Position numbers and translations under genes: made by a program. DNA of 64,000 bases from Octopus vulgaris (lineage: Eukaryota). The notes below the pieces were generated by a model. It saw nothing but the letters and a program-made list of their open reading frames with translations, was not told the origin of the DNA and made no database searches. Position 1 is the first letter of the stretch. Each line of letters begins with the position of its first letter. Of this stretch, positions 633-48,819 are shown piece after piece. The stretch spans positions 148,056,001 through 148,120,000 of the forward strand of contig OX597816.1 of NCBI GenBank assembly GCA_951406725.2, given 5' to 3'.

Positions 633-1112
633 GAATATAACTACTCGGAAGTATTCTGGGGATGGTTGGTTTTATTTATGATGATTGCTTATAATGTTTA
701 ATGAAAGACGTGTATATAAATATTGATGATATACACACACGGAAAAAACATATTTCTTTGTATTATACATATGTATGCGTATAATACACGAACACACACA
801 TATACTTATATGCACATACATATACCCACTTACACAAACACTCGCGTGTGTAGAGAGGTAAAGTCATACACGCATCCCTAAATACTTTTTTTTTACTTGG
901 ATAACGTATAGTTTTACATACGAAAATATATCTCTATTAATGTACCTCAATATGATTGTATGTTATCGCAATATAATCGATATTAGTAGGTAAAAATACA
1001 AAAGTACTAGAACAAAACTATAAATGTGCACCTTAGTGCGTTTCGGGATATTATTGTTAGTATGTTCTTGTGTATGTCTGATTCAGAGCGCGCACACGCG
1101 TGTGTATTTGTG

Positions 1113-1162
<50 letters not shown>

Positions 1163-2174
1163 TACGTGTTGTGTGTGTCTGTACGTGTTTGTGTGTCTGT
1201 ACGTGTTGTGTGATCGTCAGTATTTGCGTATTTTTTTCTCTGTATTTGTCTTCGTATGCCATCAATATTTATATACATGTCTTACATTAATGATCGAAAT
1301 ATATCAATATTTAATCTTTATAAAGGTGATTGAGCGGTGCTTACTTCTACATCTTTATTTGCCATTACGTTCTGTGTTCAAATATCGGGAAGGGTTATCT
1401 TTACTATTTATTATACAACTAATGAATTCACTCATTTTCTGAACTATAATCCTTCCCTATAAAACTGTGGCCTTGTTGCAAATTCAGAAATACATGACCT
1501 TAATTCAATATATATCTTAAAAGTAAAATTTAATGTAGCAGACACATATTCAACTTCGTGTTACCATAGTTAATACGGTGTTACTTAAGACACTGACTAG
1601 GAATAATTTTATACTGAAGACATACCAATATCAAGCCTATGACAGATATTCTAACTTATTTCACTAAGTCGGAGACACAACTCACAACACGTACAGGGCT
1701 AGCTAATATCAATTTTCCAAATTTTATTTTATTATTTAATGAAAGACAAACAAACTATATTAATACTGAAAAGCCCCCACACAAACATATATGCGTACAG
1801 ACGCAACCGTGTAAGTATGTATGCCATTGGCTACTGTCTCTAGAGTCTCTAGTGTATTTGTCTGAGTGGTTCGTGTGACTATGTGAGAGAAATCTTCTAT
1901 GTTATTGTGTGAATGAGAGAGGGTGCTTGAGTTGGGTAAATGGAAAATAATCTTGAAATGTGTACTGTGCATGATTCTAATTTGTTTGCGTGCGTGACTG
2001 GAAAGCGATATGGATTCTATTTCCAGCATCTCGAGTGTATTTGGCTGATTTGCTGTCTGTGCATTTGCATGATATATTTGCGTATTACATGGTATATTTC
2101 TGTATGTAAAAATACGTGAGTTTTTGCAAATGACTCTCTATCTCTATCTCCCTCTCTTTCTCTTCATCTCTCTT

Positions 2175-2217
<43 letters not shown>

Positions 2218-3929
2218 ATCTCTCAGTGTGTATGTTTTAACACCACTCTCTTTGTCCTACTCTCTACCATTCACTTTGGATTTTCTTTTTAATATAGTCT
2301 ATCGTCAATAAAAAAACTATCCTTTTTAATTCTACATGTTAGATGTCAAAACTGATGTTAACAAAAGTAAAATTATTTATTATTTCAGCATGATTTAAGC
2401 ATTTAGTGAACACTGAATCCTTCTTGAGGGGCGAATGCAAGAAAGCGTTTTCATTGCTTGAAAAGATCGTTTCTATTTGGTTCACACCTTTTAATTCTTT
2501 TAATTTTATTCCAATTGATTTCAAATTTGGTGTATTGTAGTTTTTTTTATGTTAAGTATGGAAATGAAATTCATTTTTGCCATAAATTAATACATAAAAA
2601 GTTAATAGCATTTTAACATTTCAAAGTTAGAGTAGCTTTAGCCACTTGACATATGCACAGACATATTGGTGCCTGTTTCTGTAGCAACAAGTGATAGTTT
2701 GCTTCAGCCAATCGAAAGTCACATATTGGTACCTGTTTCCATAACAAGGCAAGGTATAGTCTCCTTTCCAACCATATATTCGTTACCCGTCTGTCCTTTT
2801 ATTATCCTCATTGAGAATTTTACTTTTTATATTGTTTACATACCACACAAAAACCAAAACAAAAAGTCATTACGGAGTTTTCGTTCTCATATTGTTTACA
2901 TACCAGTTCCAACACTCCACATCACTTTCTTCATTAAAAATTATTAAAACTGTTATTGTCGTCCTCGTTGTAATGTTTTGTCTGATGTTGTCATGTTGTC
3001 ATGGACGGCTATCACGCAGAAAGTGCCAGCTTCCAAATCCTGCTTTCTGATTGGGTAAATATATTCAGACTTTAAACCTCTGTAAAATTTTCCTAAAATT
3101 TTTCTGAAACAAATGCATTAGATCAGATTCAGCGTAAAATCTTACATCAATATACAAAAAGTAAATATCCTCACTTAATTTTAAAATTCCAATCAGAGTC
3201 GAATAGAAAATATGCTGTTGAAAAGACAGAGGTAATCAGGATTTTGCTCAGAGAGCTACTAAGTTGATTTTTCTATGCAAAGCCGATATAAATAAATAGG
3301 GGTGTAAGAGGAGATAGAATGTATGTACATTCATGTATATATACACATATACAGCCGCACATACACATAAACACACATAAAGAGAGAGAGAGGGGGGAGA
3401 CGGAGAGCAGAAGGGAAATAATAAAACAAAAAAGGGGAGTTTGTTCATACAATATTTAGTTAATTAGATTTTACGAACAAATTCTCGTACTTTGATTTCT
3501 AGATGAATTCTGTGACCTGTGAATGAAATAAAACTCGGTCTTTAGTATGAGTCATTTTCACCGTTTTCATTTGGATACACAAGAAACACATGGAAATCCC
3601 AACACTGGATATTTCTAGTTCTATTTACATTTAAATCGCACTAATAGTTATTTAGACGCACACACACACACATATATATATAGAGAGAGAGAGACATACA
3701 GACAGACAGAGACACAGAGACAGTCAGCTATATGTACATACATATATACATATAGATATTAGAGGTATAGTAATGTAGCATTTCATGTAATGAGTTCAAA
3801 TCAGCAAAAATATATCGTGAATATATTTATTCATTGAAAATATGATCATCATGCTCAGCAATATTACTTTCTCGTCTCCAAACTAGTTTTATGATACGTC
3901 AGAAAAAGAAAAGAAAGGAAATTAGGTTC

Positions 3930-24796: not shown

Positions 24797-24840
<44 letters not shown>

Positions 24841-24842
<2 letters not shown>

Positions 24843-25175
24843 GGTTGTATACTGTCAATCTAACAAGAACGTGACAGTAGGGGGTACACCACCGTTATAT
24901 AGCCCTAGGAGGCATCGAACGCCTCCTGACAGCTTCGACACATTTTATCCTGTGTCCTTATATACACATACGAAGGGGAGACAAACACCCCCAACCGCCG
25001 GAACTGCATATAGGGACACCGTGTTTCAGGAGCTGTTAGGAGGCGTTCGATGCCTCCTAGGGCTATATAACGGTGGTGTACCCCCTACTGTCACGTTCTT
25101 GTTAGATTGACAGTATACAACCATTATATCGCTCCACCACCGTACACCTCTCTACGAGAGATTTAGAAACTCAAT

Positions 25176-25180
<5 letters not shown>
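24841..25180. mobile_element. Subfamily A retrozyme-like element as a fold-back in (TA)n
   Basis: 94-bp inverted arms at 24841-24934 and 25031-25124 (1 mismatch); 3' half of a hammerhead (GAAA-CACGGTG-TC) on the minus strand at ~25009-25030; homologous to 35362-36120. Confidence 0.85.
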
Positions 25181-30624: not shown

Positions 30625-30896
30625 AACCGGTGATTACCGTACGTTGACAAGAGGCAAATACCTCGAAACTGCAGTCCGTGCGTATCACTTAGGCTTACGA
30701 GAGAGGGATGACCTCCCTTTGCAAATACCATAAGGGCACAGAAAGTGTGCCTAAAGCCAGCTGGAGACGATGAACTCCTGGGGTTAAAAGCTACAGTAAC
30801 ACCCACTCTTAGTGGTTAGCCATATTGAGATGGCTAGTATAATTTACGTTGTCGAGCGGTTACTGTTTACATCTCGTTCAGAGATTTATTATTGCT
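30625..30896 (+). mobile_element. Subfamily B retrozyme-like element (partial monomer)
   Basis: TA-flanked; homologous to 33850-34855 and 48388-48646; contains the hammerhead at 30638-30682. Confidence 0.85.
30638..30682 (+). ncRNA. Type I minimal hammerhead ribozyme, U3-A8 variant
   Basis: Stem I CGTACG/CGTGCG; core TTGACAA; stem II GAGG/CCTC; GAAA; palindromic stem III ACTGCAGT; GUC with predicted cut after 30676. Confidence 0.8.
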
Positions 30897-32238
30897 ATAT
30901 ATATACATCTACACATAAAATACAAAATGCAAAGTTATATCTTGATATCGCTAGTGATAACAATACTCAAAATATATAACAGACTGGAATTGTAAGCCCG
31001 TCTCTTGCAATTTTGATCAATTGTATCTTGTCCTCCCTCTTGTATAGAAGTGTGGCTACAATCCAGCCTACCTCTACTGCTATTGGGGGAGGGGGCATTT
31101 TTAATTTTTATCCGGGACGTCCTACGTTCCAGATATAAAGGTAAAAATAATATATTTCCACTTTGCAAGTTCGAGTCGAGTGCTCCCTTGCATGCTCCGT
31201 TGACTCGAACCTTGCTTCTATTGTGGCGAATTTACCGCATCTGGTTAGATATCTTTCATAGTCGCACCAAGACACTTTTCGGTGGTGCTTTCCTTCAGGT
31301 GTTTAAATCTTTTTTCTCTACATTGTATACTTTATACACAATACTCTTTTCTTTAATTTAATATTTTGTTATCCATCTGGACTATTCCATTTCTGCACGC
31401 TAATTTTATTTTTAATTTATTCCCATTCATGTGAAACCACTTATTCAAGTTCGAGTCATTGATGCAATTTTATACCAATTGCTATTTTTACTTTTAATTG
31501 TTATGTTACAATTTAATTTAATTTGATTTTAATCATTACTTACTACATATAATTGAATTGTTATTATTATTTTTATTGTTAAAGTGAAAGTATCTGACAT
31601 AAAATAGAGAAATGTTTTTTTTTTTCACTTTTAATACATAATACTGAAATAGTGGAGAAGATATGATATTGCTATGGGCCGCTCAAGGCAAGGGGTTGAA
31701 CATTTTTTTTTGCCCATGAAACTACATGGACCCTAACTAAGGCGTGTGTAAAATTTGAATGAAATTGGTTGTGCAGCTCTCAAGTTTTAGGGAATCATAT
31801 AGGAGAAGATATGATATTGCTGTGGGCTCGCCCTAGGCAAAAAGTTAATGATTTTCTTTGGCGATGACACTTCCCGGACCCCAAGTAAGGCATGTGTAAA
31901 ATTTGAATGAAATTGGTTGTGTAGTTCTCAGGTTTTAGGGAAACACACAGACAGACAGATAGACAGATACACATTCTCTGTTTTATATAGAGAGAGATAT
32001 TTCTATATATATAATTGATAATATCAGGGAAATAAAGATTTTAGAAATTTTACTAACAGTGGCCTAGCGTATAGAAAGATTAGTCAGTAGACTATATATT
32101 ATTCATATAAACTACAGAGTATATTTAAACACATTAAGAGATTTATATATACATATATTTCCATATATTTCTATATATATACATATATATGAATATATAC
32201 ATGTATATATATGTGTGTATGTATGTATGTATGTATGT

Positions 32239-32790
32239 CAAGTCACTTTCGAGTGCTACTGGTAACATGTAACCCAGTACTACCTGTTGCATGGTCGGAT
32301 CGTCGGTGACTAAACCGGCAACCCCACCAAGCTTGCTTGGTGCTGATGGTGTTTATTGGTCACCCTGCGGGATGAAAAACAAAACCCGTCAAAGGGCGGA
32401 GGAACTCTTGAGAGTCAACGGCCGTCCAATAAGTGTCTTAAGGCTGTATCATGTGCGGGGACATAGAAATAATCGGACTGAATACCCGATCGCGCGGTTA
32501 AACCATTGGGAGTGAAGGACACCTAGCCTTTGTTAGGGTATCCTTCTAGGAGAAGGTAACTCGGGTAATTGGGATAACTCCGACATAAAACCTGCAGCTC
32601 AGTGGTTACCGATGATGTTGACTTGTTCTTCTTTTCGGATTATGGCTGCTGTTGCTTAGTGAGTGGGATTGACTCAGTGCACAGCCTTTCCTCACTTTAA
32701 AAAAAGTCTTCTTTCACAGGCATTGCACGATAACAACATTGATTAAGCTTCATGCAATGGCCATACTCGATAACGAGGGGGCAGCCACCA
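32239..32790 (+). mobile_element. Non-coding RTE-derived non-autonomous retroelement
   Basis: RTE-5'UTR-like ctaggagaaggtaactc motif; 3' 34 nt nearly identical to the tail of the RTE fragment at 16250; flanked by (TATG)n. Confidence 0.7.
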
Positions 32791-32872
32791 TGTATGTATG
32801 TATGTATGTATGTATGTATGTATGTATGTATGTATGTATGTATGTATGTATGTATATAAATATATATATATA

Positions 32873-33035
32873 GGCGAGAGCGTGGCTGTGTGCTAAGAAG
32901 CTTCCTCTCCAACAACATGGTTCTAGGTTCAGTCGCTCTGCGTGGCATCTTCGGCAAATGACTTCTACTATAACCTTCGGCTGACCAAAGCCATGTCCGT
33001 GGATTTGGTTGACGGAATCTTTAAGAAGTCTGTCC

Positions 33036-33084
<49 letters not shown>

Positions 33085-33292
33085 ATTCGTGTCTGTGTTT
33101 GTTCCCTCCCATCATCGCTCAGAAACCAATGTTGGTGTTTTTACATCCCAGTAACCTAGCAATTGGGCAGAAAGTATCGATAGGTTAAGCACCAGGTTTA
33201 CAAAGAATAAGTCCAGGAGACGATTTCTCCAAGTAAAAGGCGGTACTCCAGCATGGCCACACTCAGTTGACTGAAACAAGTAACAGAGTAAA
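32873..33292 (+). mobile_element. tRNA-derived SINE (family 1), near full length
   Basis: cgtggctgtgtgctaagaag..ggttctaggttcagtc head, core, internal (TA)/(GT) repeat, ccagcatggccac tail. Confidence 0.88.
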
Positions 33293-33313
33293 TGAATAAT
33301 AATTATAATAATG

Positions 33314-33378
<65 letters not shown>

Positions 33379-33379
<1 letters not shown>

Positions 33380-33787
33380 GCCCTGATGCAGTACCAGGCA
33401 GTGACTCTCATGGCTTCTGATCTTAACTGATTGGAAGTGTTATCATGTACATTGTTTTGTCTTGGTATAAAAGATGGGCTACAGCAAATATTCTGCTCAA
33501 TACCACAGATTTACTTGTCAGTTGTTTGACCTTAACCAGTTGAGCATGTCCCTTAGTGGCTGACGATATGTGCATCTCTGATCACGAGCAGAAGTAGTGG
33601 GGGAGCATCATAGCCGTGTGTTGAGAAGGATTCTTTGGGGTTTGAATAATTCACCTCTGGAAACATGGGTGGTTCGTTCAATGTCCTTAAACAACCCTTA
33701 TTCAGGGACCGTTTGAGCGGGATGGATACTGGGCTTCGTATATTTTACCCCAGTGTCACTTTGATGGCATGCTCTGCTCGCTCACTC

Positions 33788-33790
<3 letters not shown>
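33379..33790. mobile_element. Unclassified interspersed-repeat-like segment bounded by (AAT)n
   Basis: Sharp GC rise between two (AAT)n tracts (33295-33378 and 33788-33816); no ORF. Confidence 0.5.
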
Positions 33791-33818
<28 letters not shown>

Positions 33819-34020
33819 TATAGGGATATATCTGTATATCTAATCTATATATCACGAAGTATATTTGCCACTTAAATATGGCTAACCCTTAAAGGTTGAT
33901 GCTACTGTAGCTTGTAGCCCCAGAAACACATCTCCTCCAGCTGACTATTGACACACTTTCTGAGCCCTATCAGTATTTGTAAAGAGAAGTCATCATTCCC
34001 ATCTCCAGCCTCACGTGATA

Positions 34021-34065
34021 CACACAGACCCGGGTTCCTGAGTAGTGACCCGTAATCAGTTTGTG
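34021..34065 (-). ncRNA. Decayed hammerhead (subfamily B)
   Basis: Minus strand: cacaaa-CTGATTA-cgggt cact actca-GGAA-CCCGGG-TC-tgtgtg; G8 and A13 mutated. Confidence 0.7.
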
Positions 34066-34108
34066 ATAACAAACAGTTGTCTATGTGAAGTGGTTCCTAA
34101 TGCAAATA

Positions 34109-34434
34109 AAAAGACTCCGCCGGTTACGACGACGAGGGTCCCAGCTGATACGATCAACGGAACAGCTTGCTCGTGAAATTCACGTGCAAATGGCTGAGCA
34201 TTCCACAGACACGTGTACCCTTAACGTAGTTCTCGGGGATAATCAGCGTGACACAGAGAGTGACAAGGCTGACCCTTTGAAATACAAGTACAACTCATTT
34301 TTGCCAGCTGAGTGGACTGGAGCAACGTGAAATAAAGTGTCTTGCTCAAGGACACAACGCGTCGCCGGGAATCGAACTCACAACCTTACGATCATGAGCC
34401 GAATGCCCTAACCACTAAGCCACGCGCCCTCACC
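34109..34434 (-). mobile_element. Well-preserved full-length tRNA-derived SINE (family 4) with 10-bp TSD
   Basis: Head gcgtggcttagtggttag..gagttcgattccc (A/B boxes), gtgtccttgagcaagacac core; TSD aatgcaaata at 34099-34108 and 34435-34444. Confidence 0.92.
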
Positions 34435-34790
34435 AATGCAAATATATATATATATATATATCCTTTTTCCAGTGATGAAAAGTTATTGATCTCGAAAATG
34501 GCGGAAACAAGCAATAATAAATCTCTGAGCGAGGTATAAACAGTAGCTGCATGACATCGTGAAGTATACTTGTCACTTAAATGTGGCTACCTCTTAAGAG
34601 TTGAAGCTACTGTAGCTTGTAGCCTCAGGAAGGCATCTCACAATGTCGTGTAGCTACTGTTTACACCTCGCTCAGGGATTTATTATTGCTTGTTTCCATC
34701 TTTTTCGAGATCAGTAACTATTCGTCACTGGAAAAAGGATATAAATATATTTGCATTGGGACCCACTTCACATCGCCAGCCGGTGGCTGT

Positions 34791-34835
34791 CGCACGCTGA
34801 TGATGTGTCAATACTCAGAAACCCGGGTCTGTGTG
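34791..34835 (+). ncRNA. Type I minimal hammerhead ribozyme, canonical core
   Basis: Stem I CGCACG/TGTGTG; CTGATGA; stem II TGTGT/ACTCA (1 mismatch); GAAA; palindromic stem III ACCCGGGT; GUC with predicted cut after 34829. Confidence 0.9.
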
Positions 34836-35059
34836 TATCACGTCAGGCTGGAGAAATATTTACTTTGACAAGACAAGAGATAGAAAAGAGAGATAGTCCT
34901 GAAAGAAAAGGAAGATGATCGCGTGAGAAAAAGGAAGACGGAGGATGGTCACGTATGAGCAACGAGAGAGAGAAAAGGAGAAAGAGGTGGAGAGAGACAG
35001 ATAGAAATGGTGAAAGGGAGACAAAAGGGAATTAGAGAAAGAATGAGAGAGAAAACTAC

Positions 35060-35340
35060 TCTCCATGTTTGTTTTCGCTCTGTTTCCTTGTATTCTCCAT
35101 TGTCCTGTTTTTATTCCCAATTTTGAACGTCCGTAAATCCCAAATTTTTATTTTGGTACTTATGGGAGTAACTGTCTTCGAAGACTTATATTGTCGTTCA
35201 ATGCTCGAAATGAAGATATCCGACAATTGATGAATGGTCGTTACTCGTCCACTTTTTCATTTGTTTCTCTCGTTGTTTGCGTATTGAACTCATTTTGTTC
35301 GTAATATATGTTGTTTACTGTTGGTGACGTCCTGTTCCCA
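35060..35340 (+). mobile_element. (TA)n-terminated element (family E), homologous to 57835-58210 (-)
   Basis: Shared blocks gggagYaactgt, aatgctcgaaat, tgatgRatggtcgtt and gtcctgt; possible hammerhead relic (tcgaaga..gctcgaaa). Confidence 0.6.
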
Positions 35341-35361
35341 TATATATATATATATATATAT

Positions 35362-36120
35362 ATCAGAAATATTAAATTTCTAAATATCTCATAGAGATAT
35401 GTACGGTGGTGGGGCGATAGAATGGTTGTATACTGTCAACTTAACGTGACAGTAGGGGATTACACCACCGCTGTTTAGCCCTAGGAAGCATCGACGTTTC
35501 CTGATGGCTTCGACACATTTTTCTTTCCTGTGTCCTTATATATTTACGAAGGGGAGACAAATATCCTGAAACATGCGTGTCTCTAGATGCAGGCCTGGCT
35601 GCTGGGGATATTTGTCTCTCCTTCGTAAATATATAAGGACACAGGAAAAAAACAATAAATGTGTCGAAGCCATCAAGAAGCGTCGATACTTCCTAGGGCT
35701 AAACAGCGGTGGTGTAATCCCCTACTGTCACGTTAAATTGACAGTATACAACCATTCTATCGCCCCACCACCGTACATATCTCTATGAGATATTTAGAAA
35801 TTTAATATTTCTGATTTTGGTAATCAGTGAATAAACTTCACTGGAAATTAGATATACATATTTACGAAGTCGGGACAGGTATCTGCAGTTGGCAGGCTTC
35901 TGCTACTCTAGACCGATGATGGACAAAGATCCGAAAACATGCGTGTCTTTAGATGCAGGCCTGGCTGCTGGGGGTATTTGTCTCCCCTTCGTAAATATAT
36001 AAGGACACAGGAAAAAAAAGATGTGTCGAAGCCATCAGGAAGTCTCGATGCCTCCTAGGGCTAAACAGCGGTGGTGTAATCCCCTACTGTCACGTTAAAT
36101 TGACAGCATACAACCATTCT
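35362..36120. mobile_element. Subfamily A retrozyme-like element: inverted partial copy plus ~1.5 plus-strand monomers (366-bp period)
   Basis: ~205-bp inverted arms at 35362-35566 and 35606-35815; acatgcgtgtc recurs at 35571 and 35937; (TA)n at both ends. Confidence 0.9.
35907..35953 (+). ncRNA. Type I minimal hammerhead, C4 variant
   Basis: Stem I TCTAGA/TTTAGA; core CCGATGA; stem II GGA/TCC; GAAA(A); near-palindromic stem III ACATGCGTGT; GUC ending 35947. Confidence 0.75.
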
Positions 36121-36139
36121 ATATATATATATATATATT

Positions 36140-36582
<443 letters not shown>

Positions 36583-36782
36583 TGTTATCCACATACTTTC
36601 AAGTCATAATTTTGTCACGTGATATATACAGTCTCTCCAGTATGTTTATTCCTTTTATTTATATATATATATATATATACCGGAGTAAACACATAAATGT
36701 GAAACAAGGTGGAAAAAGAGTACTCAAATACCAGTGGTAGAGTAATATGCTTTATTTTAAGCAGCAGAAAATTCAACAAAAT

Positions 36783-36820
36783 CTGTTACTCTGAGTTTCT
36801 CGTTGCTGTTCATCAGACAG
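36783..36820 (-). ncRNA. Type I minimal hammerhead ribozyme in a TA-flanked element (36680-36832)
   Basis: Minus strand: CTGT-CTGATGA-acagcaacga-GAAA-CTCAGAG-TA-ACAG; stem III ACTC/GAGT; GUA; stem II weak. Confidence 0.8.
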
Positions 36821-36943
36821 TTTTTGCTAGAATATATATATATATATATGTATTGATAAAAATGGTAAGACAACAAAAGAATGAAAGAGACCTCGATATT
36901 ACTATTAATCTGTAAATATATGTGACAATTATTCGGTAGCCAT

Positions 36944-48284: not shown

Positions 48285-48390
48285 GCAGGGGTGCCTATGT
48301 TGTAAGTAGCGTGCTTACCAATCACATGGTTCCTAGTTCAGTCCCACTGCGAGGCAACTTGGGCAGGTGTCTTCTACTATAGCCTCGGGC
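48285..48390 (+). mobile_element. SINE family 1 head and core fragment
   Basis: ggttcctagttcagtcccactgcg..ttgggcaggtgtcttctactatagcctcggg. Confidence 0.75.
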
Positions 48391-48646
48391 TACAGTAGCA
48401 TCCACCCTTAAGGGTTAGCCACATTTAAGTGACAAATATACTTCATGATGTCGTACAGCAACTGTTTATACCTCGTTCAGAGATTTATTATTACTTGTTT
48501 ACACTTTTTCGAGATCAGTGACTTTTCGTCACTGGAAAAATATATGTATATATATTTGCATTGGGGACCTCTTTCGTCACTGGAAAAAGGATATATATAT
48601 ATATTTGCATTGAGGACCTCTTCACATCGCCAACCGGTGATTGTCA
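48388..48646 (+). mobile_element. Subfamily B retrozyme-like fragment, ending at the hammerhead stem I
   Basis: gctacagtagcatccacccttaagggttagccac..cagtgacttttcgtcactggaaaaa..tatttgcattg; internal ~49-bp duplication. Confidence 0.85.
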
Positions 48647-48819
48647 CTTTTTGTTGCTTTTTGAAAGTGTAATCGAATTTGCTGGGAGGCAGCCTTGTTG
48701 GGCGGAATTGAAAAGACTGAAAAATGAAGAGTTACGCGGAAGCTGCTGGAGTGCGAGATGATGTGAACCCACATCTTCTGAAGTAGGATGAGCTGGATTG
48801 GGATGAGAAGAAGTTGAGG

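What the first reader, a model, noticed from the sequence alone, without database searches (positions are those of the whole stretch)
30625..36120. ~370-nt structured RNA monomer conserved by covariation between two diverged subfamilies
Seen: subfamily A (24841, 35362; period 366 bp) and subfamily B (30625, 33850, 48388; period ~369 bp) differ strongly in sequence yet keep collinear helices with compensatory changes. Examples: GACACA/TGTGTC (36004/36022) vs GGCACA/TGTGCC (30735/30746); TACTGTCA/TGACAGTA (35723/35739) vs TAGCCAT/ATGGCTA (30817/30830); CAGTGAA/TTCACTG (35825/35837) vs CAGTGAC/GTCACTG (48516/48528); ATCTC/GAGAT in both. A long-range helix encloses the ribozyme: ATATTTACGAAG/CTTCGTAAATAT (35858/35987) vs TATTTGCA/TGCAAATA (34748/30720, taken from different copies). 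All three hammerhead stems also covary. Inference: selection acts on the fold of the whole RNA, not just the ribozyme. This is a candidate undescribed multi-domain mobile RNA in the viroid/retrozyme size class.
Basis: partly seen in the sequence, partly recalled or inferred. Interest (0 to 1): 0.9.

Follow-up and report, generated by a model that had tools for sequence, protein, structure and literature searches.

The report
Structured ribozyme RNA riding Penelope retrotransposons
A 360-base non-coding repeat with a hammerhead ribozyme motif, at an estimated 55,000 places in this animal genome, keeps one predicted folded shape across ten very different subfamilies; it is likely a circular RNA parasite (a 'retrozyme') that Penelope-type retrotransposons copy into the genome, probably by recognising that shape.

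Summary
The window copies belong to a dispersed repeat with at least ten subfamilies (monomers 342-364 nt, 44-86% identical). Each has a type I hammerhead with a palindromic stem III and folds into a ~45-bp rod ending in a multibranch domain.

Compensatory change outside the ribozyme beats a tree-based null for the rod, P4 and P8. P2 and P6 are only sequence-conserved. Copy-private mutations ignore pairing, while shared variants respect it, so selection acted on the transposing RNA, not on inserted copies.

177 of 182 (TA)n-flanked 3' ends fall at two homologous internal sites, and 52 of 57 scorable head-to-head insertions use one of each. An active Penelope-like element (PLE) in the genome leaves the same two-end signature.

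Verdict: a non-LTR retrozyme, a known class, most likely PLE-mobilised. A conserved whole-RNA fold and fixed internal start sites were not found in my literature searches. Expression, cleavage, circularity and the partner PLE are untested. The scan noted a similar integration pattern for a tRNA-bearing repeat in another genome.

The parts
24836..25031 (-). Subfamily A0 arm (monomer 348->179), 3' end at site E1 next to (TA)n
   Evidence: 99.5% to the A0 monomer
25031..25179 (+). Subfamily A0 head-to-head partner arm (monomer 81->229), 3' end at site E2 next to (TA)n
30625..30896 (+). Subfamily B1 copy (monomer 303->220) crossing the predicted cleavage site, 3' end at E2 into (TA)n
   Evidence: 96.7%
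30638..30682 (+). B1 type I hammerhead motif, core UUGACAA (U3-A8 in place of C3-G8), palindromic stem III; predicted cut after 30676
   Evidence: activity not tested
33856..34108 (-). Subfamily B2 copy (monomer 279->171), 3' end at E1
   Evidence: 89.7%
34433..34639 (-). B2 inverted arm (monomer 93->290)
34638..34854 (+). B2 forward arm (monomer 170->25) with canonical CUGAUGA hammerhead core at 34797; predicted cut after 34829
35362..35561 (-). Subfamily A1 inverted arm (monomer 30->226), 3' end at E2 next to (TA)n at 35340-35361
   Evidence: 97.5%
35556..36122 (+). A1 forward arm, 1.55 units, containing the one complete monomer 35582-35947; 3' end at E1 into (TA)n
35706..35774 (+). Helix P4 (35706-35714 with 35766-35774) enclosing hairpin P5 and site E1; the most strongly covarying helix outside the ribozyme
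   Evidence: sequence; 7 of 8 pairs with double changes
35907..35953 (+). A1 type I hammerhead motif, core CCGAUGA (U4C) at 35913, palindromic stem III
   Evidence: activity not tested
48389..48647 (+). B2 fragment (monomer 116->299) plus a short duplication (251->324)

Best explanation
This is a family of non-coding ~360-nt hammerhead repeats (non-LTR retrozymes) whose whole predicted fold is conserved, likely because a Penelope-like retrotransposon's reverse transcriptase-endonuclease must recognise the folded RNA to copy it into (TA)n microsatellites. Steps: (1) inferred: a locus with two hammerheads is transcribed. (2) Inferred: the palindromic stem III lets two ribozymes pair and cut out a monomer, which a host ligase closes into a circle; a single-hammerhead circle would be slow to re-cut. 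(3) Predicted, with covariation support: the monomer forms a rod plus a multibranch domain. (4) Inferred from mapped ends: the PLE protein nicks (TA)n and starts reverse transcription inside the multibranch domain, at E1 (inside the P4 loop) or E2 (45-60 nt further 3', after P6). (5) Shown at DNA level: copies run back across the cleavage site, giving 0.5 to about 10 units with variable 5' ends. (6) Inferred: in head-to-head insertions the two target strands are primed once each, one at E1 and one at E2, on the same template. (7) Shown: inserted copies then decay without regard to pairing.
For: Fold: z = -5.5 to -11.7 in 8 of 8. The plus strand is more stable than its complement in 10 of 10, with 84 G-U pairs against 9 A-C mismatches. 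Covariation on a sequence-only alignment of 10 consensuses: P4 7 of 8 pairs, rod extension 6 of 6, P8 5 of 6; no helix reached 5 in 60 tree-based null alignments; 39 double-change pairs against a null mean of 11 and maximum of 21. Strand-swap test on 8 subfamilies: own strands pair best for both rod halves and P3 (p=2.5e-5), P4 (3e-4), P8 (4e-4) and P5 (5e-3); 6 of 6 control pairings were not significant. On 12 real copies, 18 of 32 pairs change on both sides, reached by 0 of 500 shuffles. Level of selection, 222 copies: private substitutions 0.0199 at paired and 0.0179 at unpaired sites (p=0.12); pairing kept by 189 of 648 private and 68 of 137 shared variants (p=8e-6). Ends: 177 of 182 (TA)-followed ends (277 of all 336) lie in E1 or E2, and 9 of 9 in unselected chunks. 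52 of 57 inverted pairs with both ends in these zones are E1+E2 (p=6e-11; 99 pairs scored). Head-to-head 100, tail-to-tail 1. 5' ends at the cut site 8 of 357, against 5 expected. An RT+GIY-YIG PLE with 150 of 150 scored matches at 99-100% identity has two 3' ends (26 of 31 at +64 or +97/98) into (TA)n, one of each in 3 of 3 inverted loci. This matches the published PLE tail and internal initiation (PMC11167929, PMC8557442, PMC3846280).
Against: No transcription, cleavage or circle was shown. The one autonomous PLE examined does not share the multibranch body (best nhmmer E=2.9), and no monomer was found as the terminal repeat of a PLE ORF among 287 loci with monomer hits, so the partner is unidentified. 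P2, P5, P6 and inner P3 do not individually exceed the tree null; 'further pair types' did not exceed the shuffles (282 of 500). The E1/E2 zones were drawn after seeing the data, and most loci were selected by queries ending near them. In the two oldest subfamilies (H, I) only 2 (TA)-followed ends were found and neither lay clearly in a zone. 42 of 99 inverted pairs had at least one end outside the zones. Four subfamilies carry U4C, which is reported to lower activity considerably (PMC3088659). The rod could be selected for circle stability or ribozyme folding rather than for RT binding. Uncleaved multimers would give the same 5'-end pattern as circles.
Confidence: 0.72

Rival explanations
1. 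The element is PLE-mobilised, but the conserved fold serves RNA survival and processing (ligation, nuclease resistance, hammerhead folding, evasion of small-RNA defence); the RT recognises only short U/A-rich single-stranded sites.
For: The rod covaries freely at 42-49% identity, so shape rather than sequence is kept. The PLE's own terminal region lacks the domain yet has two ends. E1 and E2 are short U/A-rich stretches ending in T, with microhomology to (TA)n.
Against: The ends stay at homologous positions relative to P4 and P6 although the local sequence differs among 8 subfamilies. A branched domain with fixed helix order is more than stability needs (inference).
Confidence: 0.15
2. The template is a linear, uncleaved multimeric transcript; the hammerhead is dispensable for transposition and no circle is involved.
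For: For the Anolis PLE, ribozyme mutants did not affect insertion in vitro (PMC11167929). 8 of 9 Xenopus retrozyme dimers did not cleave in vitro (10.64898/2026.07.22.740005). 5' ends are not enriched at the cut site.
Against: The core is intact in 10 of 10 subfamilies, with C3-G8/U3-A8 covariation and palindromic stem III. Very young subfamilies hold arrays of many near-identical units. Coral, mussel and axolotl retrozymes accumulate as circles (PMC7229834).
Confidence: 0.08
3. A viroid-like RNA that replicates RNA-to-RNA and is only occasionally retro-inserted; the fold is a replication signal.
For: The size and the rod-plus-branched shape resemble hammerhead viroids (recalled, not tested). 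Selection acts at the RNA stage.
Against: No convincing minus-strand hammerhead in 10 of 10 subfamilies (one stemless motif in D). An estimated 55,000 insertions with the PLE signature explain RNA-stage selection without replication.
Confidence: 0.03
4. A host-domesticated structured ncRNA, or a DNA-level hairpin or satellite artefact.
For: Some tandem arrays exist.
Against: Inserted copies decay equally at paired and unpaired sites. The G-U bias is strand-specific. Subfamilies succeed one another from 12% to under 1% divergence.
Confidence: 0.02

Closest known systems
Non-LTR retrozymes of animals, especially the 350-390-nt mussel retrozyme (Cervera & de la Pena 2020, PMC7229834; sections 13, 14, 17 and passages read; supplement not readable)
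   Same: Type I hammerhead in 150-450-bp repeats, GC below 50%, non-coding, highly self-paired, coexisting with PLEs.
   Different: The sections read give only MFE models and call sequences species-specific; 'covariation' and 'microsatellite' occur 0 times in the main text. Here one architecture is conserved across ten subfamilies at 44-86% identity, with fixed internal 3' ends, (TA)n targets and head-to-head insertions.
Vertebrate retrozymes as non-autonomous PLE derivatives (Li, Clavereau & Pollet 2026, 10.64898/2026.07.22.740005; parts 1-3 of 5 read)
   Same: Proposed PLE mobilisation; monomers, dimers and multimers dispersed through the genome.
   Different: Their evidence is co-occurrence and pLTR similarity in Xenopus, with no mollusc named among the sampled groups. 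Here the evidence is the integration signature, and the one PLE examined is not homologous outside a minimal hammerhead.
Endonuclease-bearing Penelope-like elements: Poseidon_Ac mechanism (Frangieh et al. 2024, PMC11167929; parts 1-2 of 4 read); tail and inverted pLTRs (PMC8557442, PMC3846280; passages)
   Same: Two internal RT start sites giving an optional tail usually at one end only, AT-rich or (TA)n targets, 5' truncation, head-to-head inversions, hammerhead in the repeat.
   Different: No ORF; tail 45-60 nt rather than 30-40; a full-size hammerhead with an extended stem I; a ~300-nt conserved multi-helix body.
Dimeric hammerheads of repeat DNA and core variants (Perreault et al. 2011, PMC3088659; passages)
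   Same: Palindromic stem III allowing dimer cleavage; U4C is a known natural variant.
   Different: Three cores (C3-U4-G8, C3-C4-G8, U3-U4-A8) alternate within one family. That U3-A8 can replace C3-G8 is recalled and was not found in the passages read.
Hammerhead viroids (Avsunviroidae; recalled)
   Same: Size class and branched fold.
   Different: Ribozyme in one polarity only; genome-encoded; spreads by retrotransposition.

Membership tests
Non-LTR retrozyme | Type I hammerhead in each repeat unit | tested here: met
   Core, stems I-III and GUC cut triplet in 10 of 10 subfamily consensuses; Rfam itself gave no hammerhead hit
Non-LTR retrozyme | 150-450-bp unit as monomers to multimers, dispersed | tested here: met
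   342-364 nt (the 342-nt subfamily I consensus is thinly covered); arrays to about 10 units; copies on many chromosomes
Non-LTR retrozyme | Non-coding | tested here: met
   Longest ATG ORFs 25-80 aa, differing among subfamilies; PBS/PPT not searched
Non-LTR retrozyme | Self-cleavage in vitro | not testable with these tools
   Needs a co-transcriptional cleavage assay
Non-LTR retrozyme | Expressed as linear and circular monomer RNA | tested here: inconclusive
   Monomer-length self-closing contigs in 2 of 4 runs laid, but RNA status is a guess and tandem DNA gives the same
Non-LTR retrozyme | Target-site duplication longer than 4 bp when present | not tested
   Insertions sit in (TA)n, where a duplication cannot be delimited
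PLE-mobilised element | Two 3' ends (optional tail), usually at one end of inverted insertions | tested here: met
   177 of 182 ends; 52 of 57 pairs
PLE-mobilised element | Head-to-head 5' inversions and variable 5' truncation | tested here: met
   100 head-to-head against 1 tail-to-tail; 5' ends spread over the unit
PLE-mobilised element | Recently active RT+GIY-YIG PLE with the same target in the genome | tested here: met
PLE-mobilised element | Sequence homology to the partner's pLTR | tested here: inconclusive
   None with the one family examined; other PLE families exist as fragments and their ends were not examined
Autonomous PLE | RT + GIY-YIG ORF | tested here: not met
   no attached ORF
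Hammerhead viroid | Ribozymes in both polarities, no DNA stage | tested here: not met

The most novel reading that the evidence does not exclude
The multibranch domain is a dedicated, telomerase-RNA-like docking and template-positioning module. It presents two start sites to a dimeric PLE reverse transcriptase, so that both target strands are primed from one circular RNA. The family would be a long-lived lineage of circular RNA parasites that kept this module without homology to its helper's own terminal repeat.
Probability: 0.3. Interest if true: 0.8.

Novelty: new variant of a known kind. Interest (0 to 1): 0.58.

Why it matters
How retrozymes are mobilised, and what PLE reverse transcriptases (the closest relatives of telomerase) recognise in their RNA, are open questions. 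This family offers a 360-nt substrate with a covariation-supported fold, two mapped start sites, near-identical young subfamilies and an intact, recently active PLE in the same genome, so an in vitro test is direct. The E1+E2 rule in inverted copies is a quantitative constraint on how PLE inversions and tails form. It also explains an estimated 0.5% of this genome that Rfam misses.

Tried and rejected
Rfam: 0 gathering-level hits in the window. At E<=1 on 5 monomer-bearing loci, 41 hits, none to a ribozyme family and none inside a monomer.

Expression: no RNA holder listed. Contigs of 4 guessed-RNA runs were laid on subfamily D; 2 of 4 gave 390-391-nt self-closing contigs, which tandem DNA also gives, so this is not counted as evidence. 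No DNA-versus-RNA comparison was obtained.

Pseudoknots: a scan of 14 loop and junction segments found no covarying contact. A CC-bulge/GG-loop contact is possible but invariant.

Helper PLE: a search for a monomer fused to a PLE ORF found none; L084 and L324 are separate insertions. Enrichment of 5' ends at the cut site was not found.

RNAalifold on 15 decayed genomic copies recovered only part of the structure (35 pairs). The structure string was off-register and was replaced, whose registers I set from reference rows. No covariance model was built.

Literature: 8 searches listed no paper on a cephalopod retrozyme or a covariation-supported retrozyme fold. An octopus repeat annotation (PMC13282606, passages) has 0 occurrences of 'ribozyme' or 'retrozyme'. 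The supplement of PMC7229834 was unreadable and may list such repeats; bioRxiv supplements, Dfam and Repbase were not available.
Full report
Setting. The window is C3:148056001-148120000 of G000, a 2.8-Gb genome in 227 contigs, AT-rich and dense in microsatellites. From size, about 30 large contigs and composition I take it to be an octopus-like cephalopod; that is recalled knowledge and untested. Rfam finds nothing in the window at gathering scores.

Observation. The window holds six insertions of four subfamilies: A0 (24836-25179), B1 (30625-30896), B2 (33856-34108, 34433-34854, 48389-48647) and A1 (35362-36122). Three are head-to-head inverted pairs. B1 and B2 are distinct (72% identical; periods 355 and 360), as are A0 and A1 (87%; 364 and 358).

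Family. Genome searches gave 976-3292 first-look candidates per query, of which only the best 40 were scored. Following divergent profile hits gave ten subfamilies with monomers of 342-364 nt at 44-86% pairwise identity; the subfamily I consensus is thinly covered near P6. Further divergent single copies were seen but not expanded. Divergence from consensus runs from 0.8% (D) and 1.0% (A0) to 12% (H), which indicates successive waves up to the recent past. In 97 unselected 10-kb chunks, an 8-subfamily profile found 19 insertion loci covering 0.54%, with 0 hits in reversed decoys. That extrapolates to about 55,000 loci, with wide sampling error.

Ribozyme. All 10 consensuses carry a type I hammerhead motif with a GUC cut triplet and a fully or nearly palindromic stem III. 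The cores are CUGA(U/G)GA (B2, H, I), CCGA(U/C)GA (A0, A1, D, F) and UUGA(C/U)AA (B1, C, E), so positions 3 and 8 change together as C-G or U-A. Stem I carries a U opposite UAC/UGU internal loop, and loop II is usually CAA(U/A). These resemble the loop 1-loop 2 tertiary contact of full-size hammerheads (recalled). Palindromic stem III is the published sign of dimeric cleavage, and U4C is a known weaker natural variant (PMC3088659, passages). No subfamily has a convincing minus-strand hammerhead or a shared ORF.

Fold. Each monomer, folded alone, gives a 40-49-bp rod continuing stem I and a multibranch domain: P2, P3 with an internal loop, P4 enclosing P5, P6 and P8. Single MFE models miss some helices, for example P4 in B1 and D. 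Z-scores are -5.5 to -11.7 (8 of 8), the plus strand is more stable in 10 of 10, and G-U pairs outnumber A-C mismatches 84 to 9.

Covariation, three tests. (a) Swapping helix strands among 8 subfamilies: cognate strands win for the proximal and distal rod and P3 (p=2.5e-5, the permutation floor), P4 (3e-4), P8 (4e-4) and P5 (5e-3). They do not win for P2 (0.12), P6 (0.22) or the short stem II (0.42); 6 control pairings gave 0.056-0.67. (b) Helices found on a sequence-only alignment of 10 consensuses: P4 has 7 of 8 pairs with double changes, stem I 6 of 6, the rod extension 6 of 6 and P8 5 of 6. No helix reached 5 in 60 tree-based simulations. P2 (3), inner P3 (3), P5 (1) and P6 (0) lie within the null. 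(c) On 12 real genomic copies, with registers that I set, 85.5% of cells pair and 18 of 32 pairs change on both sides, reached by 0 of 500 shuffles; slid controls pair at 32-49%; pair-type diversity is not above the shuffles.

Where selection acts. In 222 copies of 9 subfamilies, with CpG sites and the ribozyme core left out, private substitutions hit paired and unpaired sites alike (0.0199 against 0.0179, p=0.12) and keep pairing in 189 of 648 cases. Variants shared by 3 or more copies are rarer at paired sites (0.020 against 0.030) and keep pairing in 68 of 137 cases (p=8e-6); some shared variants will be recurrent mutations. The fold is thus filtered while the RNA is being copied, not afterwards by the host.

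Integration signature. Across 8 subfamilies, 277 of 336 free 3' ends, and 177 of the 182 followed by (TA)n, fall in two homologous zones covering 53 of 392 columns. E1 lies on the 3' side of the P4 loop (monomer 166-179) and E2 after P6 (214-237). The zones were drawn post hoc and most loci were query-selected, but 9 of 9 such ends in unselected chunks agree. The two ends found in old subfamilies H and I do not clearly agree. 5' ends are spread, with 8 of 357 at the cut site against 5 expected, so templates are circles or uncleaved multimers rather than cleaved linear monomers. Inverted insertions are head-to-head (100 to 1), mostly with 1-10-nt junction overlap (61 of 100). Of 99 scored pairs (2 at locus edges left out), 57 have both outer ends in a zone and 52 of these are one E1 plus one E2 (p=6e-11). 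Arms of one locus are closer to each other than to other loci in 71 of 92 inverted and 77 of 107 tandem loci, as expected from one template.

Helper. A flanking fragment led to an intact PLE with RT and GIY-YIG domains (Pfam; GIY-YIG just under its cut-off). All 150 scored matches were 99-100% identical, many with a 784-aa open frame. Its 3' ends map to +64 (16) and +97/98 (10) from its own minimal hammerhead, out of 31 mapped, into (TA)n; 3 of 3 inverted loci have one of each. This is the PLE tail, described as often present at only one end (PMC8557442, PMC3846280; passages). It was shown in vitro to arise from two internal RT start sites of a protein that cuts and extends both strands of AT-rich DNA and is predicted to be a dimer (PMC11167929). 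The retrozyme shows the same signature with a 45-60-nt tail. That PLE's terminal region is not homologous to the monomer body, and no monomer was found attached to a PLE ORF, so the actual helper is not identified.

Expression. No holder is on record as RNA. Subfamily D sequence occurs in 20 listed runs of 9 studies under five organism labels. In 2 of 4 runs laid, a 390-391-nt contig closes on itself, which a circle or tandem DNA would both give. This remains open.

Comparison and verdict. It works like a non-autonomous PLE and meets every retrozyme criterion that could be tested computationally; cleavage and circularity are untested. The class and its proposed PLE link are published (PMC7229834; 10.64898/2026.07.22.740005). 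My 8 searches did not find a covariation-supported whole-monomer fold, a separation of RNA-stage from post-insertion selection, or mapped dual start sites for a retrozyme; an unreadable supplement and Dfam/Repbase could change that. An earlier scan note (e1-7810660, another genome, untested here) describes a tRNA-bearing repeat with a similar TA-targeted pattern. Novelty: new variant of a known kind. Interest 0.58.

Noticed in passing
window 36680-36835 (core on - strand at 36816); also L035:3093, L074:982: A second, ~150-nt (TA)n-flanked repeat family with a small type I hammerhead motif, with no detected similarity to the 360-nt monomer; probably another non-autonomous PLE derivative.
   Followed up: no
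L034 (- strand 761), L139 (- strand 1968): A third small hammerhead repeat family with a CCGAUGA core and a long AT-rich stem-loop II.
   Followed up: no
L181:1210-9220, L182: Very young autonomous Penelope-like element, 4.43-kb unit in tandem, with an upstream 428-aa ORF lacking any Pfam hit, a U3-A8 minimal hammerhead motif, and a predicted 8-bp helix enclosing its +98 end.
   Followed up: partly
L126:654-1256 (-): GIY-YIG-like fragment of a different PLE clade (no Pfam hit at E<=0.01), near an A0 insertion; another candidate helper family.
   Followed up: no
window 35619-35623 and 35695-35698 (A1 monomer): An invariant CC bulge on the rod and a conserved GG-rich segment in P3 could form a tertiary contact; there is no covariation to test it.
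   Followed up: partly
window 35850-35865: A TATA-like tract about 70-90 nt upstream of the predicted cut site recurs in most subfamilies and is base-paired in the rod; a possible internal promoter.
   Followed up: no
L328:201-761 (-), L047:2905-3065 (-), L136:1735-2220 (-): Further divergent subfamilies of the 360-nt family that were not expanded; an extra hairpin inside the P4 loop is present in some subfamilies and absent in A, D and I.
   Followed up: partly
window 31654-31942: Two 148-bp tandem copies of an unrelated repeat.
   Followed up: no
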